A stretch of DNA of 64,000 nt from Marsupella aquatica (lineage: Eukaryota; Plantae; Marchantiophyta): the NCBI GenBank assembly GCA_973895155.1, contig OZ316892.1, positions 2,297,223-2,361,222 on the forward strand. The letters run 5' to 3'. Of this stretch, positions 1 to 31,305 are shown piece by piece (position 1 is the first letter of the stretch; each line of letters opens with the position of its first letter). The notes under the pieces are model-generated. The model worked only from the letters and a program-made list of their open reading frames with translations, had not been told where the DNA came from and ran no database searches. The position numbers were made by a program, and so were the translations under genes.

Positions 1-3000
1 TGCCACAAGTTCCCCTAAATAAACATTACTAGATCGCTTCATACCCACGATGGTTGTGCAGTGCGCCACGTTGCCTTGGCAAGGCATGAATCTCGTTTGG
101 GAGCAGTATTTGCATAACAAGATCTACAGTACTACTACAGAAGAAGATTGAGCTAACTTGGATCGATCTGGACATTGTTGGGGATCACCTCAAATTTGCT
201 TAGCAATCAAGATGTTCCGGTAAACGCTCCCACATGATCAATGATTTCATACTTGTCAGTGGGTCGTCTGTGAGCAAGCCAGGCTGCAGCAAGCAAATTA
301 CTTGATACAGTAATTCCATAACTGTGGCAGGCAAGAGATTTCGTGATTTTTCCCTGCAGGTTTTGTAGCCGTCCAGCTCTGGATTAAACCCTAAATACCC
401 ATTAGAAAGCCTCCATCAATTCATTCAAGACTCGAAAGACGGTTCAGTGTCTCAGTCACTTTCTGCTCCTGCCCTCCTGACATACTCAAACCATGCAATC
501 CGACAAACTCGTCAGCAAAGGAGAGTGAGGAAATCAGTCAAATAAACTTGTAGCCTGTTGTACTTGAATCGTACTGCAAAAGGATCAAATGCACCTGACG
601 GTCTCCCTTCTTTTCTGTCATCGTAAAGAAAATGAGAAAATGTGCAAGAGATCTAAACGTGGGAGCAGGAAGGGCAATTTGCTTCTCTGACTATCGTCGA
701 CCTGCTGTACGTTCGAGATGTGTGTGAAATTGCTGCATACGCATATGAGGCAGAGAGCAGGGCAGTATAAGACAGACTACTTGGAGCTGACACTTAGTAC
801 CGTCCTTTTGGTACTTTGGTTTGATTGTATGGAAATATGAGATCGATTGCACAGCTAACGCAAGCTCAGGTTGCACCTTCAGAGAATCTATGGAGCTAGA
901 ATGAATCTACTTGAGGTAGTTCTGCTAATGGTGACAATGGTCGGCGTCTGCTTTGCTGCTCAAGTACTGGCTAAGCTAGGAGCAAAGTACACTGAGTGTA
1001 CATAATAATAATGCATTTGAACCCGTACTGGAAGCAGGGTCCTCCAGTCATACTACAGTACTACAGTAGTATCACGTGACCTCTCCCTTGAAGCTCTACG
1101 GCACTGTCAAGGTTTTCTGCGTCATGATCTGGACTCTGGAGCGATTACGACAAGGTTTATGGCTCCATTCGTTGTATGGCCTTCTTGCAATGTCTCCTCT
1201 GTCCTCTCGGTTTAGGTCAACTAGTAGAAAACACTATGAGTAGAAGACGTCATTCTGTAACCACATCATCAGCCGAACATGCTGAATGGTTCACGAGACA
1301 AACAGTTTTCAGTGTTCATACGCCATCGGAAGCTACAGACTCAGAGAGTATTGCGAGACGTCTGAGTCAACGAAAACCCTCAACGGTGAACGATCAAGTC
1401 TTGCCTTCGCCCTCGCCTTGAGAACTGAATGGCATCCGAATGGTAGAGTAGAGTACTTATCTGTCTAATCCAGCTTCGTTTTCGAAGCCCTACATTCTCT
1501 GCAAAAATACATGATCGTGCCTAAGTATGAACTCGCTATGCAAGCAAGTCTTTCTAGTAAGGTACCTTAGTGTACACTCAAACTGCGGAGTTCGACGACG
1601 CAGTTCCACGAAAGACCTGATTGCCGAAGTCTGGATCAAAATGCGTGATTGAGCGCGAACATAGACTTTCTACTCTTGACGCCTTGACGGTGACACAGCA
1701 GCACGTCGGCATTGTGCCACAGATGTGGGGGCAAACCGTCTGCTGTACTATCTTTTTCCCTGCGACTGGATTGGGAAGGATTTCACGAGTGCCGGTCAAC
1801 ACGGACAGATGGCCATTTCTCCATTTCCTGTGCCACACGGACGACGAATGCCAATGACCTCTCCCTTCCCTTGTACTATCGGAGAAAAGCGAACTCTTAA
1901 CTGCATGTGGGGGAGGAATTCCGTCGAACTTGCTAACGGTAGTTTTGTGCCTTCCTTCGTCGAGCCTGCGATTGGAACGAGATGGCTACGAATTTACGGG
2001 ATTCTGAGATTGTAACCTGCAAATCGCTATATGAAAGTCTCTAGGCGAGACAGACAGTCAAGGGAGAACTCGAAACTTAAAGTCTCAGATTATACTCCAT
2101 CGCTCGCACTTGATCTGAGATTGGTCCTGGTACGACAAATTGCTTACTTCGATTAAATTGATCGTCGGAGGACGTGATGGCGAGGGAGACCGACAGGACG
2201 AGGGTAGACATAAAGCGAGGCACAACATCAGGTAAAGCACTAGGGTTTTGAGTTCTTTAACTGCTTAAGATGTTAGCGCTTGTCGAGTTTCAAGAAATTC
2301 TGGTGCACATGGCTAAATATCATGGATTTGGACCCCGATTCGAGGAAGTAGCGCCTCGAACTCCTGCCCTCATCCATAGTATAACATACCAGATGAAACA
2401 GATTTCAAGGTGAAAATTGTCAGAATTGACGACGCAATATGCGATGGAAAACTCCTCGATCCAACCTCGGGATGGCATTGTCCTCCTGTCTCTGCTGTGC
2501 TGTTTTAGTAATGTCATCCCTGGCCTACCTCGGGATGGCATAATTAGGTTGAATTGGCCAGTTTCTAGATCTAGGACTCCCGAGAGGATGATCAACTAGA
2601 CTCCCAGCCCGGCAGCGTGGCCGCCGTAACGTCGCTGGCGGCGTGGGCCTTTCAAGGCGAGGCCGCAGATACGTGGTGACAGAGCATAGGTTTGAAGCAT
2701 CCGAGGTGCAATAAATGGAGTGAGGTACTGGGGTCCTCTGAAAAATATATCTTGCTTTCTATAGAATCTTTAAAGTAGTTAGATTTGCTGCACATGAGGC
2801 CATGAGGGCAATACTCGGATGTCAGTTCTCAGAAAAAGACAAATGAGCTTTCTTGAGAATCTTGTGATCGGATAATGTGCAGAGGTGCGGGTGGAGATCG
2901 ATTTCAGTCTTTGAACTTTGTCCTATGCCTGTCGAAACCATTGAACCACAAAGAATATGCACGGAGGCATCGATGCTTCCTTGTACTGGGTAAAGGACTC

Positions 3001-6000
3001 TAGCATATCCAGAACCATGGTCAGTTCTATCTCTCAACGGTTACCAATGCATTTACATATGCCGACGTTGGTCCTTGGCTTCAGTGAGAGGATAAATGCG
3101 TAGAATGAAGGTGCGGCACCTCTGCTTCCGTCGGTCTAAGCCGGTACTTTGCTTTCGACACGATCCAACAATGAATTTTCCAATTTGTCCTTTGCGATTG
3201 CAGTTTTCTCTCTGTATCGTAGACATACTCAACTCTTCTGCACCAAGGACTTCCCATGCTGCATCCAACGGACCTAGCGTGCACGAGCCTTCTCAAGCAA
3301 AAGGCTACACACAGGTCATTGAGATCTTAAAGACAGTCATAGCAATGGAGAACGAGGATTGCGCAATTGCTTCCACTGATTGGAATCTACAGAACCTAAC
3401 AAAAGCTGACTGCAAATCTCGGCAACGTTGAAGACATTTTCGTGGTCAACTCAGCTTTCCTGTATTCCAAGTTGTATCCATACGTCCGACTCCCTTCAAC
3501 TAGAGTAGGCTCAATCGGACACCATTACATTGAATTGAAATGGCAACATGTAAAACCTACCCACACCAAAACCTCAGAACTTGTGAACGAAAAATGCAAT
3601 CGAAAGCCGGTGAGATGAATGATTCGGCCTTCACAAATCGTTTCGATCCCGAGTGACTTTGGTAGCTACAGCGAGTGAAATTGTCACTCACCATAGAACA
3701 GAAATAAGAATCAGCGGACCTTGGCCTTGAACGTGGAAGAAATGGCTGATAAGTACTCGGTTATCCTTCGTTTATCCTTCACAATGCTCAAATCTAGTCT
3801 GCCAACCGCGTCCAACCTGTGGCCTTTCAAGATATACACACGCAGTCCCACAATGAATTTACCAGGATGTATCCCTTGGCACCGCATACCTGCAAAGGCA
3901 AAGGCATAGGAGTCAACCACTGATATCTACCAAGAGTGTCATCACCTATTCCAAAACCTGACCGCCATGAACTTAGAGAAATGTGAGAGATTGAGTAGCT
4001 GGATGTCAGATGTGATGTCGACCTGGGGTCGACCTTGACAAACTGGCTACTGCTGGAGTACTGCAGGAGCCTAGGTGACATGGACTCTCGCTAAAGCTTA
4101 TAACGACAGTTTTCTTCTTTGGCTCTTGAACTCAAGCTGGATTGTCGCTCTGTTTACACTTTTTGAAAAAGATCATGAGAAATAGTCCCTTGCTAAGAGG
4201 TTTCTGTGTTCCTTTTCTTACCAACAATGGTTATCGTCATGCTTGAAATCCAACGGAACTGTATGAGTTTGCAATGAAAGACATTCCGGTATATGCGCCT
4301 GACTATCAACTTGTGCTGGTGAAGACGGTTTCTTTGTTAGATGTACAATGTTTCAACTAAGTATCCATTTGAAATTGCATAGGATTCAATCATTTGTTGC
4401 ATATGAACAATTTGACCGTGCAGATGACAGGAGCGATGTGAATTTGTGCAGGAATATATGATGCCTAACTATGATGTCCAAACCATCCTGGGACTACCAA
4501 ACTCACACGGCTGTCTTACCTTGTGTAAAGTTGGACGCTTTCGCTCTCATTTTTTACCGTTGATCAACAATCATGGTCACCATAGATCAACGTTTTGCCT
4601 TGGAAATCGTTGCCAAGCCAGCTTGTATCCATCCGAGTCCAAAGATATCACTTGTTTCCGACATCAGGTTTTTGATCATGATCTGTTTTCTGCTTGTTGA
4701 GTCACTGGCATTCCAGTAAGTTTCGATAGGAAGACTAACATTGAAATCTTAGCCAAGTACACCTACTCATGTCTCATTAGATGTGCAAACCACAAACTGG
4801 CCCTGTGGCCACCAATGACTCGCAAAATTGTAAGTTCCTTTCGGAACATAGGTACTGAAAAGGAGACAGGTTTCGTGTCAAAATTTCCCCCCGGTTTACC
4901 AGGTTAGACTGGCTAGAATTGAATCTGAAAGATTGTGCCTTTACTACAGACTCCATGCACGGCTGGCTCTAAACTTTGTTGATACAATCAACCCTGTGCA
5001 ATTCTATTTCTTGCAGTCACATTGACATTGATCTTACACTAGAGCAAACAAAAGCTATCAGGTCACTTGCCATGCATTCGTCCTCTCATGCATTAGTAAC
5101 AAGGTACACAAAAGGCTGTAAGAAGTTGTCTCTCACAACAATGGATTGTAAGTCTGTTGCTTTCAAACCCCATAGACGCTTGATCAATGATTCACATCAA
5201 GCCAGTCAACAGTAGTGAACACCCTTGATGAGCAGAATTCGTGACACCTGCAAACTCTTGTCTACAACTTAAATTCATTCTTCAAGCAGATGCAATCAAT
5301 GGGCTGAATGGATTGAACAGGGCAACAATCAGAGAAATAGTCCCTGTGAACCTCGGTTTCTTCCCTTCTCCGGCAACAAGTTCTGGAGTATGTCCAAAGA
5401 GAAATCCAACGTCAGTTCTCAACTCTCTTGATGAGCATGAGCCACATCAGCTGTTAGAGGTTTTGCCATCGAGACGCTGTTCTACTCAAGCAAAGATTGG
5501 TCCATGTACTGTACGAGCGCCGAAGTCTAGCTCTAACGGTCTGCAAGAAATTAAACGTGGTGAAAAGCTTGAACCAAGACCCTCGACCACTGTCAACCAG
5601 GTGAGCTGGCGTCCAAAGAATCAGGTACACACATCACAATTAATACATAACTGGGTTGTTGAAACGTTATCCCTCTACTGTAAGGTTTCAGCTCTCCATT
5701 CAACTAACACGACTCTTGCTTGGGAGTTAAGGAAGCCTCACGAGTGAAGGTCGACATTGAATTGTGGAAGTTTCACATTCTCATAAACAGGCACACAAAG
5801 AAACCGATTATGACTAATTTCCATTGCTGCTTTGGTCAAGTGTATCTCTTATGGAATCAGAACTCAAAATAGCTTCGACGTAGCATTTCCTTTTGATGAG
5901 ATATCACTCGGGCAGGGGCTAAATGAGTTTTAAAATGTTGTCATTTTGGTCAAGGTAGAGCAGTTGCCCGTTGAATCTTGCTCGGCAAAACGTGAAAAAC

Positions 6001-7462
6001 CGACCTTGCACGAAAATTTCATGCAGTTTTCATCAAAAGCAAAATTGAAGACCATCAAACAGGTACGGACCACATGACATCAGACCCTGCTAGCTAGGCT
6101 ACTTATTATTACTTTACTGTTAATCTGTATTTTGAGAAGACGTGTATCTAGACCATGGGTTGTTGAAATCGAGGGAGCAGCTACAGTGTTTGGATGTACT
6201 CGAGCCTCGTCTTTTTCACCAATTCAAATGCTTTACGGCATACTTCTTTCACCAGAGCTAGTGGGGAATCTGAAACCTTATTGTTTCCTTTGGTTTAGCT
6301 CGCACCCACTCAACACCATCCCTGTGATTGAGCTTGACCCTGATATCCACTGCTTGGCATGACCAACGCTTCTCACCGGCCATAATCATTGTTCGGTCCT
6401 CACCTTCCATTTGTATGTCTGCTACCAAAATGAACACTAGGGTCTGCGACTTGCTCCAATTAGCTACGTTGGAAGACTTTCGTTCCCACGCTAATTCGAT
6501 TCAACTACAATTGATTCGTTGCTATCCAAGCATTCTTCTCTTGTCAAAGCCCTCTTGAAATTCTCCTTTGTCACAAAACTAAAGTTTGAAGGCAAACATA
6601 AATTCCACTTGAAATTAAATGTAGGAACTGGAATCCTGGTCGAGCATGCACTCTACATACATTTGATGTCTTAGTCACCACGGCGGGCACCACGGTCCTC
6701 CTCAACTTTTATGTAGTAAAGAATAGCTCGAAGGACTGCGGCTTGTAATTCCCACACCTCGGTTCTCCTCAACTCTATAATTATGGTAAAAGAACAGCTT
6801 GAAGGACTGAGGTTGTTGATTCCCAACATGTAGCATCCAGAATCAAGTCAAGTCAATTAAGTAACTGACACAAGGCAGTGCATGATAAGGCCAGGGAAAG
6901 TAGAAAGTAGAAAGTAGAAAGCAGATGCAAAGTTCAGCCTCATTTATCTTAATGCTACAGGCTACCAATCATCATATTCCCCCTTGAAGGAAAGGTGAGG
7001 TTGAGACGTGCACCAAAGTATCACAAGCCACTTCTAAATAACTGGAGCAAAGTCCAGAGCGAGAGTCAAAATGTTTGAGCATCAAGTGAAATATCATACC
7101 CTGCAAACTGTCGTAATTAGATAAATGCCTTACGGCATTCATTGTAGTATTGATCTGTACAGCCTGTACTTCCAGCACAATGTCTGGGGTCCATCTTCTC
7201 TTAGAAGAGTTTCAAAATAAGGATGGTACCTCTCTCTTCTCCCTTGTGTACGTGCCGCATGCGTTTTATAACATCGCAGTGCACGTTGCCTTGAAACAGA
7301 CAAAACTGTTTTGCCTTAGATACCGTAACTATTTGACCCTATAGTTGTGGGTGGGAGCGTTTTAAAATTCATCGTTTTAAGTGATTTTTAATACTCTGCT
7401 GGTAGACAGATCTCCATTTCACCTAATTTTGAAAGCTTCTTGTGGACTGTTTATTGCTGCAG

Positions 7463-10400
7463 TTTCTTGAAGCATTTGAGTACAAGCAAACTCCTGGGAC
7501 ACATTTTAATACTCACAAATTGCGGCCCCTTGCACGCATCATGGACATTGCAAGAATGGTATTAATGGCTAACAATACAATGTTGAAGTAAATCTGTTTT
7601 AAATCTCTACTTGCTTCTAGTGACCGGGTGATGAAGTTGTCCAGCTTAGGGCTAAGACCTGACTGCGTGTACACTAGTTCAACTATAAGTACCTAATCCT
7701 CAGGGCCCTCACTCTAAGGGGGTTTCATATCATGTGCGGGGGTAATAAACACTCATTAAAACTAAGAAAAAAACAGAAGTTTCTACCCATTTTGTTTGGA
7801 ACAATCAAAATGTTAGTCTTGACTCTAATCTTTTCTTATAGCAATCAAAATTGATTGAGAAAACTTGTAATTTTCCTCCACAATAATTATAATCTTTCAC
7901 TGAACTAAATTAGAAAAATTGTAGTTTTGGCGCATGGGTCAAATGAAACAAGTGAGGACACCCAGGTAATCACAAGAGTTTTGTGAATCTTCCTAGGTTG
8001 AAATTGGGGTTTATTTTATTGTGCTTTTCAGGAGACTATGATCCTGACGTAACTAAAATAACTTCCATTTGTAAAGAAATAGAATAAATTTTGGTATTCT
8101 AAATGTTCATTGACCTACTATACGAGTACAAAATGTATACAATAAAGTGACATCGCTATTTTTGTGTTGTCTATATTTATTATTCTTGTGGTCAAAACAA
8201 TATTAAAAAAATGGCTTTTATCAACAACGTCACATTGTTGCGTGCAGATAATATATTCTCCACAACCTATGAAGTGTGTTGAGGCAGTCTTCCTTGCTCT
8301 TTATCTCACGGTAATCTACCGAAATGAAGGTTTCTTACAATTGACTAATATAGATCTCTTTCCATGTAAATTAGGGAAATGCATCACAAATAGAAATATG
8401 AATAAGAATTAATGCAACCATGACCTCTTAAGTTTTAAATATCTAACTTAGTTGAGTCATTATCTTATTTAAGTTTTTTCGGTTTTTCTAAGTGAAGAGT
8501 CAATCACAACATTTGAACCCAAGACCTATGAGTCAGTACTCAAGACAGTGAACTACCACACAGCCATGCCTCTTTGGGCAATTGAGTCAAGTCATTATCT
8601 TACTAGCATGAAATGGAGACTAGCCAATATTAGTTGGGAATCCTGTACATGACCCTCACAATAGGGAACTTTGCCTTTTGAAAGAGTTGAGAACCTTGCT
8701 AGAAACAACCCACCTGTGTAACTGGCAAGCGGGCTGGCAAGAATCTTTTAATTTTTGTAATTAGGCTTTTTGTAGACATAACTTTACTCAACCTTACAAG
8801 ACAAAAGTCGGGTTTGCTTGTTTTTCATTGTCCTCACAAATCTAAATCTTATTTTGTTCACTGCCCGGTTCACTGACCTATTTTTTATCTTGTGGACAAC
8901 TCAACCTTACAAGACAAGACCTAACTTTACTCAACCTTACAAGACAAAGAATTAGATAAAAATATCATTTTTAAATTCACCAACAAAAAATTAATTCTCA
9001 CTTTTTTTTCTTGATGACATATGCTGTTTTTCTATGGCATGAATTCATACAATGCAACCAGTTTTATTGTCCAGATAAGCTTGTGTAACTTATCCACACA
9101 AATCTTTTTCTGCTCGGAGTCAGCTTTTATCCCTGCATCCAAAATCTCATCATCATCTGCTACTGGTTAACTCTTAATTTAGTCCAAGCTTGAATCTATG
9201 AGGCAAAATACTGGTTAACTCTGAATTTAGTCCAAGCTTGAATCTGACTATAAGGCAAAATTTCTTAGATAACTACATTGTTCGCTCTCATTAGTGTGAC
9301 TAACACTACCTTGAGAGCGCCACTTTTTAGGGTCTACTTGTGAATTAGTGTTAGTCACACTAATTTTTTCATAACAATATTTTTGCACACATAAAATAGT
9401 GCTAGTGTGGTCTCATGGGTGGGAAAATAGAGGGAAAATAACTATTTTGAAAAATCCACAAGAAGTAGTGTTACTTTGGACTCAAGACCACTCAGCAATC
9501 TAAACAAAGTGAAAAAAGATAATTATGAAAACCAACAAAGTTGTAACTTGGACTCAATATCAATTTACTAAAATTAGTGTAAATAACTTGAATTTTATAC
9601 TTACTGTAATTCTTGCGTAACATTAATTATGATGATCAGTAATCCCTAAAAATTAAGATGCTGTTGATTTTGGGTCCTCCGGCGTTTTCGCTTTCTGCTT
9701 TCTCCCGTGTTTTCAAGGGTTTAACTAAAAACAATTAAAAACATATATAAGTAAACCCCTAAGATTGAAAGATAAACCCATTAATTATGATTGATGCTCT
9801 TATTGCAGGCCGGTGTAGTTGATTGTGATCGTATACCATTGAGCTTCAAAACTTCCTATGATGGACAGGTACATAACAAGTAAATAAAAATGTTTATGTC
9901 TAAGCTTAAAATTATTGCTGTTAAAACTTGTTAATCTTGAAGACCATACTTTACTTGTGTTGATTAATGCGTTTATATTATTAAGGTTGTTTGTAAGGTT
10001 GATACTTATAGAGTGACAATTAAGTCAAAGAATAATGATTTTAGTTCTCCAATTACTAAAGTCAACAAGTTTTCTATCAATCAATGTTTTGCAATAATCT
10101 ACCATCATTCTGTTAGAATTTTCAAAAATGCTCAATGCTTGTCATTGTGCAAGAATATAATGTGATTTGCAATTCAAGTCAAATGTTATCGTTTTCCTGT
10201 ATATGAAGTCAGAATGGCATTGGCAAGCCAAATGGCACAAAAGAGCATTGGCAAGCCAAATGGTTTTCATTGTGGGATCTTTCTTCCTCCTTTATTGTGG
10301 AAGTTGAGAGCTCAATGGAGTAGGCAGAACTCTAGTTTCTCCGTAGCAATCTCTCCTACAGAAAACTAGACTATGATGAACTTGATTTTTAACTGTATAT

Positions 10401-12963
10401 GATTCTACATCAATTGATGGAATAAGAAAATATGTTTCAAGCTTCAGGTTTATCAGCATATTGTTCTTTTGGTTCGCTATGGTGCTAAGTTTGGTGCATT
10501 TGGAATCAGTCGTCATCCTGGATTAATGACAAAGGACATCAAATTTAGCAGGTGAGAAGATGAGTCATTTAGCCTGGCAAAATTGAAGTTTTATTATAAT
10601 CCACTTGGGAACATGCCCCAAGGACATGCAAGTTTGCTATAAATAATCCAATTTGAAACCTGCCCCAAAAACATGTCAAGGTTGCTTGAACAGAGCCATT
10701 AAATCCACCAATTAATAAAACAAAACCCAGATAAGTGGAGGTTCAATGGTTTTTAACCTCTAAGTTTAGATGTTGAGCCTACAAGCTTCCAAGAACAGTG
10801 ATTTTATGCAACCGAGTAATTGTTTTGTGCACAATTGAGGTCAATAAAATAATGGCAAAAAGCTTTGAAGAAGCGCTTCATTCACTTGCAACGGCTAACT
10901 TACTGATAGTAAAATTGAAGGTCGTGGGTTTTCTGACGTTAATTCATTTTTTGTGAGAAAAACAAGTTATGTCTAAATATAGTATAAATAATAAATATGT
11001 TCATAAAACTCAAGAATTATATGTCTAGGAGCTCGAGTTGCAGTTTGACTTACTGAATAAGCATATCACTCTCTGAAGTTGTGTCAGTTTTGATAATCTT
11101 GCAAGAGTTGATATAATTGTACGTCTTCTTGGCAGTATATGCGATATTGTTGAGGACTATAAGAAGACTTACGAAGAAGCTGAACATACTCTTCTAAAAA
11201 TCAGAGTTGGCCTACTAGTAAGTGTACAAAACAAATACTGTTCCCATTCAAAGGCACTTGGAAAATCTTGAGGTGGCGTTTTTTGCTCCCTCTTTAATTT
11301 AATGAACTAATTGGACATTCACTTAAAACTACATTGTGATTTCCATGATTATTGTCTAAAAAAATATGCATAATGGAGTCCCTGAAAAGAGCACCAGTAG
11401 GAGGAAAAGAAGGCTTGTCTATTTTACAAACATTGCAATCATGATATTCTCTCATAGTATCCCAGAGATTCTAGCTAAGAAACCTAATGTCAGCTACTCC
11501 CAAAGAAGTTTTGAAGCCTCCTTTTAGCTTTAATTTCATCCCATTGGTTGTACATGATTGTAACATCATCTGCATTTTCCATCTAATACTTGTTTAGGTG
11601 GAGCACAAGATACATTCATGCAATTTTGTTTGTTGGAGGCATCTTTGTCTCAACCTTATGCTAGAATCTTGGGATAAGGTAATAGCATGTGATAAGTACC
11701 TCTCTAGATTTAGAATAACAGGATAGTCACAGAAACATTTAACAAGTCATTGTCATAATCTGTTTTAATATCACATTCCTCATTCTCAGTCTAGAATATT
11801 CTTGGATTTTGAAGATAACATTTTAAAATATCATAAGAAATTGTAAAAACATTTTGATGTATTAGATTTATCAAAATGAGTCAAAAGTAAATGCAGAACT
11901 TTTGAGTGTGAAGGGATGAATATTTATATAGCTAGCTGAGGGAGTGACAGCTTGTAATATGGAGAAATGACAGAGGCAGCTAAGAAATGTGGCATGCTTT
12001 TTTTGAGAGACATTGCATATATATTAGTTGAGAATTTGCCCAAACAATTACTAAAGCCACACTCCATGGCAAATTTGGTTCTTACAAATGCTTGCATATA
12101 CTGAACTTAGTTAATGGCTATGGATTGTGTTTGGGTAGTGTTGTGAAGCATTGGAAAACCACATAATGATGCAGAGAAAGCTTTGGAACAAGTAGGAATT
12201 CCAAAAACCTTTGCCTACTTCAGTTTGAACATGTTGACTCCTCATCGCTCTTGATTCTCACCGTGATTGCAAAAAATTTAAGCATGCTTTAATCTTGAAT
12301 TAGAGCTTTGATGTTTGGTCCTTGTTTAATGTAGACTCAGCTATGTCAATAGATTGAGTCCATGATGGGTTTTCTGTCTTGTAGTCTCTATATTTTGTTT
12401 GTATACCGTTTCTTGTTTATGAAGCCAATCAAACTGTGGATATTATGTGTAGGTGGTTGGTGGCAGGCAAAGGCACAGATCCAAGAAGGAAGTGTCTAGC
12501 AAGAAAGGCAGCTCTTGACAACAAAATAAGAAGTGTTGTTGATTTGAAAAGAAATAAGCAGGTGAAGGGCAAAGAGGTTTCGACAATTGTGAAAACTCAT
12601 TTGGCAGAAACAAGGCATGTAGGAGAGATGACTTGCAACAACAAAGTTCAAGAAACAGTGCTGGCAGATATGAGTGTGGCGTCATGGACAAGGAAGGAAA
12701 AGACACAAGATATCCATGCTAATATATCTAAGCCATTGATAAAAGGCCATGTATTGAAAAGTCAGGCATCCAGACTTGTAATGCACAATGCTCAATTTGT
12801 TAACCCTAAACTCTTTTCTCATAAGAGGTTTCTGAGGTCTGACCTAACTTCCTTCCAATGTAGAAGAAAGATAAAAGTCACGCTGAACTTAGATAATGCT
12901 AACAAACCCATCATAAGGCCACAAGCAAAACAAAGAAAATGTGCCATTCTTGTACATGCTTAA
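7463..12963 (+). CDS. Vasohibin-family protein (transglutaminase-like cysteine protease, putative tubulin carboxypeptidase/detyrosinase); multi-exon, 5' end not resolved
   Basis: Eight GT-AG exons join in frame with consistent phases: 7463-7558 FLEAFEYKQTPGTHFNTHKLRPLARIMDIARM; 8248-8310 IIYSPQPMKCVEAVFLALYLT; 9809-9868 AGVVDCDRIPLSFKTSYDGQ; 10448-10551 VYQHIVLLVRYGAKFGAFGISRHPGLMTKDIKFS; 11136-11217 ICDIVEDYKKTYEEAEHTLLKIRVGLL; 11598-11678 VEHKIHSCNFVCWRHLCLNLMLESWDK; 12139-12191 CCEALENHIMMQRKLWN; 12453-12963 basic tail to TAA. These are collinear with the recalled vasohibin motifs RPLxxLMDxA, PIKCLEAVILGIYLT, RFPISFKT, HIVL, GALGMSR. The last two exons are less certain than the first six. 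Confidence 0.9.
8468..8589 (-). mobile_element. tRNA-derived SINE in a vasohibin intron
   Basis: Minus strand has an A-box-like TGGCTGTGTGG, a B-box-like GGTTCAAAT and an A-rich tail. A 13-bp direct repeat AGTCATTATCTTA flanks it at 8455-8467 and 8590-8602. A related copy lies at about 55993-56072. Confidence 0.7.
8781..9260. repeat. Short intronic direct duplications
   Basis: ACTCAACCTTACAAGACAA occurs three times (about 8786, 8899, 8929). TACTGGTTAACTCT.AATTTAGTCCAAGCTTGAATCT occurs twice (about 9161, 9209). Confidence 0.8.
9290..9364. repeat. Perfect 19-bp inverted repeat (hairpin) in a vasohibin intron
   Basis: ATTAGTGTGACTAACACTA (9290-9308) and its exact reverse complement (9346-9364), separated by a 37-nt spacer. 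Confidence 0.85.
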
Positions 12964-15900
12964 AGGGCTAACCTTTGTTGGTAAATCCAAGATTACAGCT
13001 CTAATGCAATCAATCTACTTCACGTTCCAAGATTGACCACTCTCCTCCAACAGGGCCTTGGTACTCCTGATCGGTGACATTGTCTTCCCACTACATATGA
13101 CTCTAACTCCAAATTCTTTAGATATTGTAACATGTGGACAATTATTATGGAAACGTTTGATTTTGTTTTGCAATGAATCTGACTCCCTCAATATTACCCA
13201 CAGATAGTGAGTGAAGGTAAATTGCAAATGCAATCCACCTCTAGATGTGATCTCAGATGTGATAAGGCTGCACCTACAATCAGAAGCAGGGTTGCAGACA
13301 GCTGGAGAGCCAAGGTTAAGAGACAACCCAGAATGATGCTATAGTGAAAAGTTGCAAATGAAGTTCAGGTTGTCAGGCCTATGTACATGGCTATTGGTGC
13401 CTCCCTAGGGTCCATGGCATGCCCTGGAAAATACCTGGCATGCCTGCCAATCTTTGGGTACATCATGCATTTTGCAGCTCCCGGTTTCATTTGCCTAAGT
13501 TAGGGCCATCTTCAGTTATCATCCCTAGAGGTTGAGTTTATGTGTTCTTGACGCAAAACCCATTTGTTTGGGGCACCTTGAGCTTAGTTTGATCCCAAGT
13601 AGTTGAGTTGAGTTGAGTACTATTAGTTTTTCTTGAATTATTGTTGAGGCCGAGCAATTTGGCCATAGCTTGCCATAAATTCCTTAAAAAAAAGTTATAA
13701 AATATTTAGTAGATGCTCCTGGCCAATCTTGGCATCCCAATGGTTTACACTTGATTTCAGTACACTCAGAATGCCTTTTTCTTACGCAGATGCTCACACT
13801 TCCAATATGTACATACCAGTTCACTATGTACATTTTTTTTTCATTATTCCATTTTGTTTTGCATTGTGTGGACTTGATTGTTTCACCGCTTGTTTAGCAT
13901 AAGTTTATGCATGCTAGAAGTCACAACAAGGTGTAAGTCCTAGAGGGGTCCATGATTGGGGTAGGGCAATTAGTTGTGATCCAAAGTCTATTCAAAACTG
14001 GGGCCACAGGTGTTTCATATACTCTCAAAAAGATGACGATCCATTGATAGATCATGGGTGGATCTTCTTTAATTTTCAGGCCAAATATAAAACACAAAAG
14101 CCCAAAACCATGGACATAGACACTTAAAAAAAAACCAATGTTACGCAGTCAGTGATAATGAGAGAACCAAGAGAACTCGCCAAGCTTGTCATATGATAAA
14201 GGGAGGGTGCTAAACATTATGATGTACATTCAGTAAACGATCTGTTGACTTGCGTGCATGGGAATTGAGATGAGACTGATTCATTCGGTCAGGGTGTCAT
14301 CACCCCCCCATATAGTATCTGGAAGTGTATTACTTCATGAGTAGCATTGAAAGGTACAATTTTCTAATTTGACTTAATTCACGACCCAATACCGTGTGAC
14401 TCTTCAATTCCACCCTGACTAGAATGACCTTTGCATAAGTGCACCTCATGCAAGTACAATCCATCCCTTGTTTACAGCACCGGAGACCGGAGGAGCTTCT
14501 TCCCTAATATTTATTGTGGGAAGTGTAGTTTTCATTTGTACTTTTACAAGTACAATGAAACCTCACTAAAAGATTGATTTACAAGTGCGATTCCCGCTGC
14601 TTGTTGACTCCTTATCCAAGAGAGTACAGATTGCATTTTCCGATAATTGCTGTGGGAGTGTTGCCGTGGGAGTGTTTGGAAGAGTGGTTGCACTAATGCA
14701 AAATGTACTACATATGTCCTATGGTGCCTTATTACCCTAATTGTTGGGAGTTACCCTTAGCCTAATTATAGTTAACTGATTTAAAATTATGGTTAACTCA
14801 AAGTTGACTGGGTTAACTCTATTTTATTATAAACTCCAGCAAGTGTTTGTTTGTGTGAAGGAACTCATGTTTCATTGTTGCAAAGTCAATTGAGAAATAG
14901 GGATAACTTGTGCTATGGAAACTTGATGTTGTTAATGGGTTTAAAAAATAAAAAATAAAAAATATTGTTAATGGGTCTAAAATCAATAAAACTCTTGTGT
15001 GTTCCTGTGAACATACCTTATTGGACATGAACCTCCTAACTCTATATGTTTATTACTTGTTCTTTGGAGTGTCATGTGCATGCCATTGCAAGTTGCGTCT
15101 TGTTCAATACCAATCCTTCTGGGATACTCTTGCATGGACTCCATGAACAAGGAGTGGTGTAGGGTAATTCTAAACCTTAGAGGCGGTTGTGGGCTGTAAT
15201 TGCCAAGGACAATGAGCTGTACTAGGGGGTTGCAGTCATGGGCCAAAAACAGACCATGGGTTAGCAGTTGTAAGCCTTGACATTCTTTTTCCACATTAAA
15301 TAGCCAACTTTTGATACTACCGTAGGTGAGGCTGCCTGACAATTATAAGACATGGAACCCCAGGCCAGCATGAAGAGGGGGTTGGAGACTTGGAGGCCCT
15401 GACTTTTCCCTGATTTTCAGCAGCTAGGTGTCATAGTACCAGCTATAGTGGTGCTGCCACATATTGTCTTATTTAGATTTCACAGGTCAAGAATTGAAGG
15501 GCCTGAATTGGTTTGGCAGTATACATGCCTTCAGGGACAAGGAGATTCAAGCATACAATTCTCTGTGAATGTTGGAATGTCATCCTTTAGCTAAAGGTCA
15601 GAATATGAAGGTTTGCTCAAATGCAAGCAAGTTGGCTCTCAGGACGGGGAACCTCCCCTAAACTAGAAAGTAAAAACTACATGAAGGGTTTAGTCAAGAC
15701 ATTTATTTGATGGACCTCCAACCCCATGAGTGATCCAGCCAGTTTATAGACCCTAAACGCAAAACCTCAAGTCCTGGTTGGGAGAAAGCTTTGGCTTGGG
15801 GGTCCATCATGTAAACTGTATCCGGGTGTAGTGGCCTGACACTCCGACTACTGTACTCCACCAGTAATAAGAAATGAGAGATAGATTCACCAACGAATTC

Positions 15901-18875
15901 GTCCACAATAGTTGCACCTTTTTTTGTTTTGTGCCCCCAAGCATGGAGGTGAGTGTGTTAATACTACAATGTAAAGCCCTTGCCACTGCCTAGGGTAGCT
16001 TGCACTTATGAAGAGTTCACTGTCCTGTAAACAAGGTTCTTTCTGCGCCCAAGGCAAGGCGTTAGGTGCCCCACGACACAGAATTTTACTAACTTAATAT
16101 CTGGGAGTAAATGCACCTCGGAGCCCCATCAGCGATAGCATATTGCCATATTGGCATGAATGACCCAAATTAAGGAAGTCAATATCGACGGCTCAGAGAT
16201 CCCCTCGAACTCGGACGCACGCCCCCTCGACCCTAATCTCGCCGCTCTCTGGTGGCCACGACAACAATTTAGTAATTTATGGTGCTGAGTGCTGAGCCCT
16301 GACATGCCAGGGTTTAAGGAATGTTCCTTCTTTTAAAACTCTTAATTTAATTAATGACAGTTAACTCTCTAGAGATTAATGAACGCTGGAAGGACGCGCC
16401 GCCCTCATAAAAAGCTGCGGACATGCTCACCTGTACGGAATACCTATATACGGAAATCATGAAAATGAGTATATCAGTATATGTGCTTCCATTTTCCAGA
16501 GTTTTGTAGTCAATGGGAGCGATGATTGCTTTTTTTGTCGTTTTAGAAGGGGTGCTTTGCATAAAGCAACCCTCGGACTGACTGCCCTCGCATTCCTCGC
16601 AAGGTCCCCCCTCCTCGTTCCAGCTAGCCAGCCATCTCCAAAATTTGGGTACTTTTGGTTAAAAGAACTTTTAAATATTGAACCTATCCTTACACTGACG
16701 TTTACTTTCATGAGTCATTTGGTGCAACTTTGAACCAAAACTTTCAAAAAAATTCTGAATGTGTACTAGCCTTAAACGCGTGATGCCTTTGCATATGAGT
16801 TCAAACCTTTTGACCAAGTCTACACCATAGTTATGTAACACCATGTATGGTAACCATGTAATCAACATTAGAAGACACTTGTCCAAATGCTGTGCAGAGC
16901 ATCTAAAGTTCTAGAATCTTTTTCGTCCTCCCCGCCATTGAGAACAATTTCACAAGTTTGGCAATCCATAGATCCAATTCAGCTCGCCCTTTCCCCATAA
17001 TCCAATAATGTACAATCTAATCTACTTGCAAAAGAAATATACCTGATTAAATCAACATCCCCAGTCTTCTTGGGGCCCGTACTCTGCCCGTCACAAATCC
17101 CAAAGTTGCTACCCGCAAGCCAGCTTGACTGTCAATCGCCGTTCTGGCAAACTCTAAATGTATTAACCTCTGATCCATCAACGGACGGATAAGTTCCATT
17201 CTTTTTGAATTTGGTGCCCTTTAGGGCGCGGGACATTCCAGCCTTGAACATCCACGTCACACGAATGCAAACAACAAACATAGGTGCACAACTGCAATAA
17301 CCCTTATAGTTGGGCGATTTCAGGGTTACTAGAACAGTCACATGAACGCGACAACCCTTATATTTGCGCAAACGCAGGGCTGCCAGAACAGTCACACGAA
17401 TACAAGCAACAAACCACAATGACAAAAATTGAGAATTAACAAGGGACAAAAATAGAGGGATTTGAAAAATAGAGGGATTTTCGGCAGGATTTGACAAATG
17501 GACGAGATAGCCCCCGCAAACCCCAAGAATTTATGGCATCCCCAGACCCAGCTGAGCTCAAGAGGATGTATTCCTCACTGAAAGCTTTCCAACGCACCCA
17601 AGAAGTCCTCCAACGGACTTCCCGTTGAGAATTTATCGTTGTTTCCATTTGACATCCAAGAGAAATGTAATATACTAGTTTGGCTACCCATCCATTGAAC
17701 GTGAATAGAGATGAGGGTAAAAAAGTGTTGACCCTTTAGGGTTTAGGGTTTTAACCTAAAGAGAAGAAGGGCTGCCGTTTCACCATAGCCCTTGACCCTC
17801 AATGACATAACGGACAGCTTCACGAGGGGCCTCCCTAATCCATTGACTCTCTTCACATGCGGGCCCTACTCGACAAACTCTCTTCACAGGATATACTTAT
17901 TTCAAATGCGGTGCAATTTATTCCGGCACTACTCCACCCCCATTAATTCTCATTTTTCATCCCCACCCCTAATTTGATTATTGCCCCCTAAGTCATTGAA
18001 CATAAGTAGAGACCAAGATGATAAAGAATATTGTAAAAAACCAGTATGTGGGTCTAGTTGTGAATTGTTTAGTAACATCATTGAGCTTTAAATTTCCAAC
18101 CACTTTTCTCTCAATTGGACTCTACCAAAAGAAAAGTTGTTTGATGTGATAAGGGAAGGTGGGGGAGGGAGAATTAGGATGTAGGGTTCTTTTACAAGTG
18201 CATCATCCATAACAACATTGTTGAGAGTAGCAAGAGTTAACAACTTGTTGATACTTAACTCAAGCAAGTGGTTAAATAGGTTAACTCTCCTAACACAATG
18301 TACTATACCATGAATTAGTGCTGCTAAGGTTAGACTAGTGGGGAGGGCCTATACCTTGGAGGAACACTTCATTGTGCCCACACTAGATATCAATGGTGAA
18401 GAGTTGGAGAGTGGAGAGAGAGAAGAGTATAGTGTTATGGAGCTCAGCATGTGATTTGTCAAGCTATGGCCAATGTATGGTGTTAATATATTTAGTCAAT
18501 TTTTCCTTTTGGTCAAGGACGCACCCTAAACAGGGTGAATCAAACTTCTTTAAGTCAATAATGATAGATTATGCGTTGTACCCTGGTTCCTCAACACAAC
18601 TAGCAATAAGGATGTCCATTCATATGCGAAAAGACATTCATTTCACAACCCTTCACCTATCATGGAAAGAGTTATGAGGTTTAATTTATTTCTAGTTCTT
18701 CCATGCCACATTGATTTGTAGATTGATTGAATTTTTTCTTTTTTTTGGAATAAAGGGGGAAAGAGGGTGAGGACCCCTCAAACCCAAATAAACAAGAGAG
18801 CAAGCACTCCTATAATGAATACTGTTTTTCTTTAGGTCCTCCTAGGTCAGATCTGTTTGGGTCAAATCAGCTTAG

Positions 18876-19278
18876 TGTTGGGTATTTACTCTTACGTCTA
18901 GGTTAGGTATGACGTGGTTGGTACAACAACGTGGGTTGGTACAACTACGTGGTTAGGTACAACTACGTGATTAGGTACAACTATGTGGTTAGGTACAACT
19001 ACGTGATTAGGTACAACTAAGTTGCACACTATATCATAAGAGGCATGTGTGCTTGGAGAGGTAGAACCAAGGCTCATTGTTATGGAGCCACTTGAGAGAT
19101 AAGGAGAGCTTACACTGTGGAGACTCGGTATAGCCGACGGGCTTAGAGTTCAGTAAAGCTCTCTTGTGTGTTCCCGTGGATGTAGCCTCAAGGAGGTGAA
19201 CCACGTATCTCTTGTGTCGACTATTGTGCGTTGGATGGTTCATGGGCTTGCCGTTGCGATCGTCGTCTATGCTCAACA
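18876..19278 (+). repeat. 5' LTR (403 bp) with an internal 18-bp tandem array
   Basis: Nearly identical to 24770-25173 (about 4 substitutions and one 1-nt indel by eye). Unit GTACAACTACGTGGTTAG repeated about 5.5 times at about 18921-19020. Confidence 0.97.
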
Positions 19279-19280
19279 AT

Positions 19281-19292
19281 TGGTATCAGAGC
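19281..19292 (+). other. Primer binding site complementary to the 3' end of initiator tRNA-Met
   Basis: TGGTATCAGAGC lies two nt after the 5' LTR end; this is the canonical plant tRNA-iMet PBS. Confidence 0.95.
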
Positions 19293-20431
19293 ATGCTTGG
19301 GAGGTGATGTGTGTTCGTGACGGGATTTCATGACGGTTTTTCCAGCGTTGAGTGTTGGTGGATTTCCCATAGTTCCGTCGCATAGAACTTAGAGTTTATG
19401 GGCTCAACGGATAGATCAGGGCAAGAGCTTTCTAACGGTGTGAAGAAATCGTTGAACGGAGCTCGTGGTGCAGAGAGATCTAAGTTTTTATCGTTCTGGA
19501 TTTTGTGAAGAAAGTTGGCAATCGACTCGGAGGGAGAAGCGTCAAGTGTTTTGACTCAACGGAGAGATTGAGGCAAGACGATTGTTTTGAGTCCGGGATT
19601 GGCTCTTTGATGCAAAGAGGAAGGCTAAGCAAAATCAATTACCTTGTTGGACTTGGTGACGGCACCAAGTGCAATTGATCAACATTCGTTGTTGACAAGG
19701 TACCATTTTTTTCTCTTTGAAAAACTGATTCGAAATTGGCTATGGCAATTGAGAGAAATCTGTCATCTTTACTAATTTTTTTCTCCCTTGTTCTTTCCTC
19801 GTTTTGGGTGCTTCTTATATCGATCTTCACCGCCTCGGAGTCTAGTTTCCAAATCTGAAATCAGATCTTGATTTCATCAAAACCCGAGTGAGATATCTTG
19901 CGTTTGGTGTCGAGGGGTACATTTTGCCGTGTGTATTTTCTGCGCGCGCGACCAGATTTCGACGACGAAGGGTGGTAGGGGGTTTTGGGGGTTCGAGGAC
20001 ACGTGTCAGCCCCTCGATTGTTCTTCCAAAATTCCCACAGGGCCTGTACAAGGGTCATAGAATATTCCAAAAAACCAGAGAGCTATTTTTTGACCGTCCG
20101 ACAAAGATTTCATCCGTCGAACGGTAACTTTTTTGGTTATTTTTCGGCGAGGTCGTAGCCATTGAAGTTGGCAACGCGGCGCACCAATCACATCGCAATT
20201 CCGACAACGGATTGTACTTGGTATTTCGGTTATTCCCTGAGGTGGTCAAAACGGGGGAGTTTCCCAAGGTTTTACCCACCTCGACCAAAATTTGAATAAC
20301 TTTTCCGTCAATTTTTGATTTTGATTTCGGTTTTCAATATTGGACTCCTAGCTTTGTGGGCTACGCGGCGGTGTTGAGTTTCGAGTTTTTTGAGAAGTTG
20401 TGAAAAACAACATTTTTTGTGATTTTCTCAT

Positions 20432-23400
20432 ATGAGTGATTCGGAGGAGTTTTTCGAAGACGTGGAACTTGAAGCACGAGGATCACCACGGAGGTTTCAG
20501 GGGCAGAGAGAGGAGCAGGAGGAAGAGCACGTGACACCGATACCATCACCGGTGCGGCGTGTGGTGGAGGAAGCAGTACTACTACCGAAGCTCACGGTAG
20601 TGCCAAAGAAGAAGATGGGGACTTTCAAGCTTGGGGGACCCAAGTATGAAGTGACAAAGTATGATGGGCGCTCTGACTACTTGCTATGGGAGAAGCAGGT
20701 GAAGGGAGTGCTCTATGCGTCAGGGATGGGCCAACTGTTGAGCCCTCGTGAAGACGATGTTGATGAGAAACAATGGGACCGCATGCAGGAGCAGGGAGTG
20801 TGGTGTGTTACACTCTATCTCATGCCTCCCATCATCAAACACTTGGGTGCACATAAGGATTGCATGTCCTTGTTTGCAGAATTGCAGAGCAAGTATCACC
20901 ACAAGGAGTTGTCGAACCGGCTCTACACTTCCTACAAACTGATGAGTTTCAGGATGAAGGACTCCGGTACAAAGTTGCAAGACCATGTGGATGCTTTCAA
21001 CGACATGGTCATTGACTTGGAAAACCTTGGGGAGACTTTGAATGATGAGACGAAGGCTCTACAGCTTCTTAGTTCATTGCCTCCATCTTACCAGTCCCTA
21101 TCACGAGTGTTGTTGCATCGTGATAGGATACCATTTCATACAATGACGTGGTAAGTTCTCTGCTTAGTGATGATCTTCAGCAGAAGATGCACATCACGTC
21201 ACAGCCTTCATCATCTGGTGCTGCCCTCAATGTTAACTGTGGGAGGAGTATGCAGCGACCAACTGGGGACCGTAGAACCCAGTTTAGATCTAAATCCAGA
21301 TCTAAGTCCAAGGGTAAATCCCCTCAGAGGAGGCAGGTGACATGTTGGAAGTGCAACCAAGTTGGACACTTCAAGCGAGACTGTAAGGGAAAGGCAGCGG
21401 AAACTTCATCGGCAAATGTGGCTAGGGCTGATGGAGAAGCTGATTTACTCAATGATGAGTATGTTTTATGAAGCCAGGGGTATGCCCTGTGCACGTCATC
21501 TAGGAGAGCAGATGATGTGTGGATTCTTGATTGTGCTTGCTCTTTTCATATTTGTTACATTCGTGAGTTTTTCAATTCTTACTCTGTTTCAAACGGTTCA
21601 GTTCTGATGGAAAATGATCACTCCTGTCAAATTGAGGGAATTGGGTCTGTGAAAATTCAAATGTTTGATGGCGTTGTGCGCACAGTGTCCGAAGTCAGGT
21701 ATGTACCTGGCATGCGTAAGAATCTGATTTCACTCGGTGTGTTGGATTCAAATGGTCATCAATGGAGCGTTATTGATGATGAACTTCAAGTCAGGTCGGG
21801 AGAGTCAGTGATTTTGAAGGGGAGCAGACAAAATAATTTGTATGTGTTATAGGGCAATACTGTATGTGGAGAGGCCAATGTAACCAAGTCTCACGAGGAG
21901 ATGACTCAACTGTGGCATTCACGGCTAGGCCACATGAGTGAGAAGGGTTTGGCTATCTTACGGAAGAATGGACTCATTTTTGATTTGCAATAGTGTAAAT
22001 TAGAGTTCTGTGAGCATTGTATTCTTGGAAAGCAGCATCGTCGTGCTTTTGGTGTTGGAACTCATCGTTCCAAAGCGGTTCTTGAGTACATACATAGTGA
22101 CGTGTGGGGTCCATCCCCGACTCCCTCACACTGTGGAAAGTTATACTATGTATCATTTATTGATGATTACTCAAGATTTGTGTGAATTTATTTCATGACG
22201 CATAAGTCTGATGTCTTGTCCATTTTTAAGAAGTGGAAGGCCCAGGTGGAGAATAAGACTGGAAACACGATCAAGTGTTTGGATACAAGGGTGAAGAGTC
22301 TGAGGTCAGACAACGACGGGGAGTACACTTCAATGGAATTTGAAGAGTACTGTTCAGAATAGGGGATAACTCGTCATCTCACCATAGTTTATACTCCGCA
22401 ACAGAATGGTGTCGCTGAGAGGCTCAATCGGACACTGTTGGAGCGATCACGGAGTATGTTGAGCCAATCAGGTTTACCACAAGAATTTTGGGCAGAAGCT
22501 GTGAATACCGCAGCTTATTTGGTAAATCTTTCTCCTTCTAGTGCTATCAATTTCAAAACGCCGTTTGAGATGCGCTATAAGCGGCAAGCAGACTATCATG
22601 GCTTGGTAGTTTTTGGAAGTGATGCATATGCTCTCACACCGAAGCAAAATAGGACCAAGTTGGATCCTACCTCCAAGAAATGTGTTTTTCTTGGGTACCA
22701 GAGTGGTGTGAAAGCCTATAGGCTATGGGATCCTATTGCCTGTAAGCTCATTGTCAGTAGGGATGTTTCCTTCAATGAATCCAGATTATTGAAGGAGGGG
22801 GAGAATACTCAGGTCTCCCGTACTGACAAAGGAAAATTTCATATCCCGGATCTCGTTGAGGGGGAGATTGGTTATGAAGTGCATGACCGGAGAGAAGGAG
22901 TTGCTTCAATTATGGAGCTGGTTCCTGTGCCAGAGGAACCAAAGGAGTTTGTTGATGCTGGTGAGCAGCAAGTGGATGCTGTTGAGCTTCAAATTGTACC
23001 AGTAGACGCAATTCAACCGGAGTCATCGGCTAGAAGAACATCTGGTCGTACTGTACGCGCTCCTCCTAGGTATGGACAGTGGGTTGATTCATCTCAACTG
23101 CAAGAGGATGATTTTGTAGCTGATGATGAGGGTGATGCGTTAATTTTGGAAGAAGGGAATAATTCCACAGGAGGTGGATCAAAGGTCTACAAGGCTAGGT
23201 TGGTAGCAAAGGGATTCACACAAGAGAAAGGTGTGGATTACAATGAGGTCTTCTCACCAGTTGCTAAGTACTCTACAATACGACTATTGTGTGTACTTGT
23301 TGTAATGTTTGGTCTGCTGCTAGATCAGATGGATGTTGTCACAGCTTTCCTCTATGGCACATTGGAAGAGGTGATCTTCATGAGACAACCGCTAGGTTTT

Positions 23401-24579: not shown

Positions 24580-24769
24580 AGTTTTCTTAACATTCATTGT
24601 AATTACTGATATATGCTCTTCCTCATTCCTATGTATTAGGCTACGGCTTAGTTCTGGTTTGCTCTAGTTAGAGAGGGAAACCGGTTTGGTTTTTGTCCAG
24701 AACTTCCCGCTGAGGGATCATATACATTGGCAGTATTACTCTCCCCTAGACCAGAGTCAAGGGGAAGAT

Positions 24770-25173
24770 TGTTGGGTATTTACTCTTTACATCTAGGTTA
24801 GGTATGACGTGGTTGGTACAACAACGTGGGTTGGTACAACTACGTGGTTAGGTACAACTACGTGATTAGGTACAACTATGTGGTTAGGTACAACTACGTG
24901 ATTAGGTATAACTAAGTTGCACACTATATCATAAGAGGCATGTGTGCTTGGAGAGGTAGAACCAAGGCTCATTGTTATGGAGCCACTTGAGAGATAAGGA
25001 GAGCTTACACTATGGAGACTCGGTATAGCCGACGGGCTTAGAGTTCAGTAAAGCTCTCTTGTGTGTTCCCGTGGACGTAGCCTCAAGGAGGTGAACCACG
25101 TATCTCTTGTGTCGACTATTGTGCGTTGGATGGTTCATGGGCTTGCCGTTGCGATCGTCGTCTATGCTCAACA
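24770..25173 (+). repeat. 3' LTR (404 bp)
   Basis: Direct repeat of the 5' LTR, preceded by the PPT and followed by the TSD CTTAG. Confidence 0.97.
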
Positions 25174-31130: not shown

Positions 31131-31305
31131 TGTAATTGGAATTGGAACCCAAATGAGGAGTTGAGCTAGGGCCTGAGATGGCTGACCTGATACTGCCCTT
31201 TTGGGTGCACTTGGACCTGAGCCCCAACGGTGGTCCCTCACTGGCTGTAGCAACTGCACTCCAAGAGTGAGGCACGAGGAGTTGAGTGAGTTGGGCAAGG
31301 GCAGG

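What the first reader, a model, noticed from the sequence alone, without database searches (positions are those of the whole stretch)
7463..12963. Hidden multi-exon vasohibin (tubulin detyrosinase-like) gene in a land-plant genome
Seen: eight small exons splice in frame and retain the residues matching the vasohibin catalytic Cys (PMKCVEA, about 8275), His (YQHIVL, about 10457) and the GISR serine/arginine motif. Only one conserved exon surfaces in the ORF track. Established: animal VASH1/2 with SVBP remove the C-terminal Tyr of alpha-tubulin, and detyrosination marks stable and axonemal microtubules. Inference: plant detyrosinating enzymes are poorly characterised and I recall no vasohibin in Arabidopsis, so this is a candidate for a little-studied plant tubulin-code enzyme, perhaps tied to flagellated sperm.
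Basis: partly seen in the sequence, partly recalled or inferred. Interest (0 to 1): 0.85.

Follow-up and report, generated by a model that had tools for sequence, protein, structure and literature searches.

The report
Liverwort vasohibin, a tubulin-trimming enzyme gene
This is a multi-exon gene, likely from a liverwort, for a vasohibin-family protein that is predicted to clip the last tyrosine off tubulin; the same gene is already annotated in Marchantia, mosses, a lycophyte and ferns, so it is ordinary as a gene, though we found no experimental study of it in a land plant.

Summary
Eight exons (7463-12963) join in frame over seven GT-AG introns. Four exons hit Pfam Vasohibin separately and in order. 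Cys (8275), His (10457) and Ser-Arg (10508-10513) sit where stated.

The nine-exon product is 54% identical over 366 aa to Marchantia MARPO_0029s0039, which NCBI already names tubulinyl-Tyr carboxypeptidase, and groups with liverworts. All 7 internal exons have the same lengths and ends in 3 of 3 full Sphagnum-like loci. Named relatives come from bryophytes, Selaginella, ferns and green algae, none from seed plants.

A 2016 paper already reported moss vasohibin, yet plant papers of 2024 and 2026 still say plants have none. Verdict: new member of a known family, likely an active detyrosinase. The sperm link is plausible but untested; SVBP independence is an inference. The scan met vasohibins before in Naegleria and bacteria; no plant case was listed.

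The parts
5964..6062 (+).
   Evidence: tblastn 47-59% identity to Marchantia and Riccia proteins; orthologous exon ends at the same codon in Sphagnum-like loci and is spliced to the next exon in transcript contigs L005 and L006
7463..7558 (+). Exon, 96 nt; Tyr134, Lys146 and Arg148 equivalents (tubulin-tail binding in VASH1)
8248..8310 (+). Exon, 63 nt; Lys168 and catalytic Cys169 equivalents (Cys codon 8275-8277)
9809..9868 (+). Exon, 60 nt
   Evidence: no Pfam hit alone
10448..10551 (+). Exon, 104 nt; His204 (10457), Ser221 (10508), Arg222 (10511) and Leu226 (10523) equivalents
11136..11217 (+). Exon, 82 nt
11598..11678 (+). Exon, 81 nt
   Evidence: no Pfam hit alone
12139..12191 (+). Exon, 53 nt; end of the catalytic core
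12453..12963 (+). Last coding exon with stop; basic tail (35 Lys+Arg against 12 Asp+Glu in the last 163 aa), predicted disordered in the orthologue
5290..5600 (+). Candidate upstream exon (open frame, AG and GT ends, no ATG); unconfirmed
   Evidence: 10 of 311 sites differ in the second copy of organism B against 22 of 338 in the next intron (p 0.07), but 8 of the 10 changes alter the residue; no similarity to relatives' N-termini
2177..2231 (+). Candidate first coding exon (ATG, phase-1 donor, telo-box-like motif at 2241); one of many possible, unconfirmed
   Evidence: with the candidate exon above it gives an open 504-aa model (Marchantia 489 aa)

Best explanation
[quoted passage not shown] Inferred mechanism, by homology to VASH1: Lys146 and Arg148 equivalents hold the acidic tubulin tail; Tyr134, Lys168, Ser221 and Arg222 equivalents shape the active site; His204, oriented by the Leu226 carbonyl, activates Cys169, which cuts the Glu-Tyr bond. 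The basic disordered tail would help it stay on the microtubule lattice. The most likely main site of action is the flagellar axoneme and other stable microtubules of swimming sperm, with a role in vegetative cells not excluded. Shown: exon structure, family, residues, orthology. Inferred: expression in this species, activity, substrate, cofactor independence, tissue.
For: In-frame GT-AG splicing. Ordered Pfam hits. 54% identity over 366 aa to Marchantia P0042, named tubulinyl-Tyr carboxypeptidase. Groups with Marchantia and two Riccia proteins, SH-aLRT 98, in a quick 32-row tree where mosses, liverworts and vascular seed-free plants form separate groups. 7 of 7 internal exons identical in length and flanked by AG and GT in L002, L003 and L004; orthologous 5' junctions spliced in L005 and L006. 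P0042 matches 19 solved VASH1/VASH2 sequences at E 4e-39 to 5e-36; its model aligns to them at Z about 30, rmsd 1.5 over 199 residues for 6j9h. Residues whose mutation harms VASH1: Cys169, His204, Leu226, Lys168, Ser221, Arg222, Lys146 and Arg148 kept; Tyr134 also kept. Trypanosomatid vasohibins work without SVBP (passages, PMC11761321). A Chlamydomonas VashL mutant loses detyrosination and shows IFT stoppages (passages, PMC11770126).
Against: The start exon is not fixed and splicing in this species is not shown. Lys145 and Arg223, both in harmful VASH1 mutants, are His here; Marchantia also lacks both. Two positions are unusual: Met for an Ile invariant in all 120 aligned relatives, next to the catalytic Lys-Cys, and Leu for a nearly invariant Pro. 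The core is 2-8 points less identical to five other plant or algal proteins than Marchantia's is, a hint of faster evolution. The fold was computed for the Marchantia orthologue, not for this product. No land-plant vasohibin assay was found. Flowering plants show detyrosinated tubulin without a vasohibin (passages), so plants have another route.
Confidence: 0.78

Rival explanations
1. It is an active tubulin detyrosinase but a general one for vegetative microtubule arrays; the match between its range and flagellated sperm is incidental.
For: Spliced Sphagnum-like transcript contigs were assembled in the environmental collection (L005, L006), and Psilotum and Pteridium entries come from transcript-style records; tissues unknown. 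Mosses keep several paralogues. Leishmania VASH shapes the cell-body cytoskeleton (passages).
Against: No named seed-plant hit among 120 listed of 149 or 30 of 30, which fits loss with flagella. The algal mutant has a flagellar phenotype.
Confidence: 0.3
2. The gene is decaying or already silent in this lineage (young pseudogene or relaxed selection).
For: No start exon fixed; two substitutions at near-invariant positions; longer branch than Marchantia (0.66 against 0.34 plus 0.14); both differences in exon 5964-6062 of the second copy in organism B change the residue.
Against: 382 codons open over eight canonical introns; all catalytic residues kept; none of the 12 insertions or deletions listed for the four runs over 1-16000 lies in an exon (67 more not shown), nor any of the 3 listed over 5150-6150.
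Confidence: 0.08
3. It is an active vasohibin-fold peptidase whose main plant substrate is not the tubulin tail, or which needs an unknown plant cofactor in place of SVBP.
For: The SVBP-clamping helices are unmatched in 12 of 13 streptophyte proteins scanned, and SVBP is needed for human VASH1 stability and full activity. Lys145 and Arg223 are not kept. Bacterial relatives of the same fold (CPR-C4, Z 12) have no tubulin.
Against: The tail-binding and active-site residues are otherwise kept, and SVBP-free trypanosomatid enzymes are proven detyrosinases.
Confidence: 0.12

Closest known systems
Marchantia polymorpha MARPO_0029s0039 (PTQ42496.1, BBM96985.1; NCBI name tubulinyl-Tyr carboxypeptidase; UniRef Vasohibin-2)
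   Same: 54% identity over 366 aa including the tail, 68% in the core; same clade.
   Different: Different lineage of likely liverwort; N-terminus here unresolved; Met for Ile and Leu for Pro at two conserved positions. The name is an annotation; we found no assay.
Vasohibins of Sphagnum, Physcomitrium, Ceratodon, Selaginella, Psilotum, Adiantum, Pteridium and Klebsormidium
   Same: PF14822; 52-62% core identity for the five measured; identical internal exon lengths in Sphagnum-like loci.
   Different: Tails and N-termini diverge; mosses have several paralogues, one Ceratodon copy with Ser for the catalytic Cys.
Human VASH1 and VASH2 with SVBP (PDB 6K81, 6J8F, 6J9H, 6QBY)
   Same: Fold and catalytic set; about 35% identity for the Marchantia orthologue over VASH1 103-304.
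   Different: Helices alpha1 and alpha2 (Trp74, Trp78, Val81, Val91, Ile95, Leu101), which clamp SVBP, have no confident match; long basic tail unrelated.
Trypanosoma and Leishmania autonomous VASH; Chlamydomonas VashL
   Same: Non-animal vasohibins tied to detyrosination; the trypanosomatid enzymes need no SVBP.
   Different: Their sequences were not compared here; trypanosomatid enzymes also act on beta-tubulin.

Membership tests
Vasohibin (PF14822) | Match to the Pfam profile above the curated cut-off | tested here: met
   One exon frame alone scores 32.7 bits against a cut-off of 24; three more hit in order below it. The joined product scores 328 bits on a profile of 120 PF14822 proteins.
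Vasohibin (PF14822) | Cys169 and His204 with Ser221 (or Leu226 carbonyl) as third member | tested here: met
   All four kept (definitions from PMC4866520 and PMC6937246).
Vasohibin (PF14822) | Transglutaminase-like vasohibin fold | tested here: met
   Shown on the Marchantia orthologue as stand-in: core pLDDT above 90, Z about 30 to VASH1 and VASH2, next family Z 12.
Tubulin tyrosine carboxypeptidase (works like VASH1/2) | Basic and polar substrate-site residues Tyr134, Lys145, Lys146, Arg148, Lys168, Arg222, Arg223 | tested here: inconclusive
   5 of 7 kept; Lys145 and Arg223 are His. The VASH1 mutants were partly combined, so the single losses cannot be judged.
Tubulin tyrosine carboxypeptidase (works like VASH1/2) | Removes the C-terminal Tyr of alpha-tubulin | not testable with these tools
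   Needs an enzyme assay or knockout.
SVBP-dependent animal VASH1/VASH2 | N-terminal alpha1/alpha2 helices that clamp SVBP | tested here: inconclusive
   The window's N-terminus is unresolved. In orthologues the Pfam match starts at profile position 42-50 in 12 of 13 streptophyte proteins (25 in one), the Marchantia model is disordered there, and Klebsormidium and Psilotum have only 23-24 residues before the conserved loop. Several protist hits also start late, so this is not plant-specific.
SVBP-dependent animal VASH1/VASH2 | An SVBP gene in the same genome | not tested
   No whole genome is held and no SVBP sequence was on hand from a tool.
Expressed gene (not pseudogene) | Spliced transcript with a start codon | tested here: inconclusive
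   Orthologous junctions spliced in Sphagnum-like contigs; for this species the start exon is open.

The most novel reading that the evidence does not exclude
Seed-free land plants keep an SVBP-independent vasohibin that is their sperm-flagellum tubulin detyrosinase and was lost in seed plants along with flagella. A Marchantia knockout would give the first genetically defined land-plant detyrosinase, against recent statements that plants have no vasohibin, and would show that flowering plants detyrosinate tubulin by an unrelated enzyme.
Probability: 0.4. Interest if true: 0.55.

Novelty: new member of a known kind. Interest (0 to 1): 0.33.

Why it matters
The gene itself is an expected orthologue. 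Its value is that it points to a gap. Plant microtubule papers from 2024 and 2026 state that plants have no vasohibin, and a 2026 survey of moss tubulin-modifying enzymes does not use the word in its main text. A 2016 paper reported homologues up to bryophytes but not in vascular plants, whereas database records here show them in Selaginella, Psilotum, Adiantum and Pteridium. The identity of the plant tubulin detyrosinase is an open question, and it can be tested directly in Marchantia or Physcomitrium; this window is not needed for that test.

Tried and rejected
Whole-genome search: no genome is held, so copy number and SVBP could not be checked. A word-based protein search with the best single exon found nothing; the exhaustive search with the same exon found 18 proteins. 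RNA evidence for this species: no RNA holder listed; the four runs laid showed no joint at an exon boundary among those listed, which says nothing on expression. Single-sequence folding of the orthologue failed (pLDDT 38); the alignment-based model was used. The careful tree did not finish; the quick tree without bootstrap is quoted. A separate upstream gene: 0 of 62 frames of 45 aa or more in 1-5400 hit Pfam at E 0.01. Candidate exon 5290-5600: no similarity to five relatives' N-termini above shuffles and no excess of silent changes (2 of 10); left unresolved. Contamination or horizontal transfer rejected: exon structure matches moss loci and the tree follows plant groups. Absence in seed plants is not proven: only about 8000 candidates were scored per search, many hits are unnamed, and no human VASH or Ceratopteris record appeared among the rows listed; no cycad or Ginkgo record was seen either way. 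Two papers on VASH evolution and structure were not held. A preprint that screened Marchantia for sperm-lineage genes does not mention this gene in its main text; its supplements were closed and may bear on expression.
Full report
Observation. With boundaries 7463-7558, 8248-8310, 9809-9868, 10448-10551, 11136-11217, 11598-11678, 12139-12191 and 12453-12963, 7 of 7 introns are GT-AG and the joined frame runs 349 codons to a stop. Scanned one by one, 4 of 7 exon-bearing frames hit Pfam Vasohibin PF14822 in gene order; the other three gave no vasohibin hit. On a profile of 120 relatives the eight-exon product scores 305 bits and the nine-exon product 328, against at most 6 for 200 shuffles. The Cys, His and Ser-Arg codons are at 8275, 10457 and 10508-10513.

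Extent of the gene. tblastn with seven plant relatives showed a further exon ending at 6062, before a GT donor, with four possible acceptors between 5955 and 5964. It carries the loop and helix that precede the Tyr134 equivalent. The start codon lies further up. One open model adds 2177-2231 and 5290-5600 and gives 504 aa, close to Marchantia's 489, but 26 ATG-to-donor candidates were listed between 2000 and 5900. The 5290-5600 frame resembles no relative's N-terminus. In a second, diverged copy held by runs X3 and X4 it differs at 10 sites against 22 in the following intron of similar length (p 0.07), yet 8 of the 10 change the residue. The 5' end is therefore open.

What it is. An exhaustive search with the His exon gave 18 proteins; those with names are vasohibins or unnamed genes of Marchantia, Sphagnum, Physcomitrium, Selaginella and Psilotum. 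Profile searches added Riccia, Ceratodon, Adiantum, Pteridium, Klebsormidium and green algae. The nine-exon product is 54% identical over 366 aa to Marchantia P0042 (MARPO_0029s0039), tail included; NCBI names that record tubulinyl-Tyr carboxypeptidase. In a quick tree of 32 rows (31 picked from the proteins fetched, plus the window) it joins Marchantia and two Riccia proteins with SH-aLRT 98, outside them. The source is thus likely a liverwort. Three unnamed land-plant-like rows fall inside the fern group.

Independent support for the splice model. A scan with the Sphagnum protein gave 7 loci. Transferring the window's junctions onto it, 7 of 7 internal exons have the same lengths (96, 63, 60, 104, 82, 81, 53 nt) and AG and GT flanks in L002, L003 and L004; L007 ends early and shows the first 4. 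L005 and L006 are spliced relative to those loci and join the exon orthologous to 5964-6062 to the next. Database gene models that skip or stop at exons also break close to the window's junctions.

Mechanism. P0042 matches 19 solved VASH1 and VASH2 sequences and nothing else at E 0.001. Its alignment-based model has a confident core that superposes on VASH1 103-304 at Z about 30 and rmsd 1.5-1.8; the next family, bacterial CPR-C4, scores 12. Mapping through, the window keeps Tyr134, Lys146, Arg148, Lys168, Cys169, Glu171, His204, Ser221, Arg222 and Leu226. PMC6937246 (whole text read) shows that mutating these positions (Tyr134 and Glu171 apart) harms VASH1 and revises the triad to Cys-His-Leu carbonyl. 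Against: Lys145 and Arg223 are His; Ile167, invariant in 120 relatives, is Met; a nearly invariant Pro is Leu; and the core is 2-8 points less like five other plant or algal proteins than Marchantia's is. I judge it an active detyrosinase with probability near 0.8; this is inference.

Cofactor. In VASH1, helices alpha1 and alpha2 clamp SVBP. The Pfam match begins at profile position 42-50 in 12 of 13 streptophyte proteins scanned, the Marchantia model is disordered upstream of residue 100, and some plant proteins are too short at the N-terminus to hold the helices. About half of the structural alignments extend into this region, but with rmsd above 3. Trypanosoma and Leishmania vasohibins act without SVBP (passages of PMC11761321). 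SVBP independence is a fair guess, not shown; SVBP itself could not be searched.

Sperm link. No seed-plant name appears among the 120 listed of 149 hits or the 30 of 30. The named land plants belong to groups with swimming sperm (abstract of bioRxiv 2021.07.25.453666 in the search listing). A Chlamydomonas VashL mutant lacks detyrosination and has IFT stoppages (passages of PMC11770126; that paper describes the locus both as an SVBP and as a Vash2-SVBP homologue). But the searches are incomplete, cycads and Ginkgo were not seen, tissue expression is unknown, and spliced moss transcripts turn up in environmental assemblies. The link stays a hypothesis.

What is known. PMC4866520 (parts 1 and 2 of 3 read) reports vasohibins from green algae to Physcomitrella and not in vascular plants; the Selaginella and fern records here extend that. 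PMC11720312 and PMC13688044 (passages) say plants have no vasohibin homologues. PMC13317287 (passages) surveys moss tubulin-modifying enzymes with no occurrence of the word vasohibin in its main text; its supplements were not read. Searches for vasohibin with Physcomitr (2 papers), land plants (1), Marchantia (0), flagellated sperm (1), for detyrosination with Marchantia (2), for tubulin carboxypeptidase with moss, fern or sperm (15 of 5196 listed) and for the Marchantia gene id (0) listed no experimental study of a land-plant vasohibin. The library lacks most subscription papers; van der Laan 2019 was not held and may cover the family's range. PMC10318531 (passages) added nothing on plants.

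Verdict. A real, well-supported vasohibin gene; a new member of a known family, with an annotated orthologue in a model liverwort. Interest is modest (0.33): the gene is ordinary, but it flags an untested and easily testable candidate for the land-plant tubulin detyrosinase that part of the plant literature says does not exist.

Noticed in passing
window 1-16000, runs X3 and X4: Both runs of organism B hold contigs identical to the window and a second version about 2-7% diverged, as a hybrid or allopolyploid (or a mixed sample) would; runs of organism A show the window's version only.
   Followed up: partly
window 8490-9490 (intron after the Cys exon): Short segments of very high depth with direct and inverted repeats, MITE-like; organism B has a version that skips 801 nt (8544 to 9346).
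   Followed up: partly
window 18892-25086: Copia-type LTR retrotransposon with two 300-nt repeats 99% identical and gag, zinc knuckle, Pol beta-barrel, integrase and reverse transcriptase matches spread over several frames.
   Followed up: partly
window about 33980-42230 and 57830-64000: Two tandem ABCG (PDR-like) transporter genes, 78-82% identical in DNA over aligned parts; the second runs off the window.
   Followed up: partly
window 31056-31807: Repetitive stretch giving proline- and glycine-rich open frames on both strands with no Pfam match for the frames scanned.
   Followed up: no
proteins P0048 and P0051: A Ceratodon vasohibin paralogue has Ser for the catalytic Cys and Pro for the Arg222 equivalent, so it is likely inactive; a Physcomitrium model carries a retrotransposon gag domain behind the vasohibin domain.
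   Followed up: no
L002:1165-3130: The Sphagnum-like gene has a long spliced 5' leader and only about eight codons in its first coding exon, a layout that could explain why the window's start exon is hard to find.
   Followed up: partly
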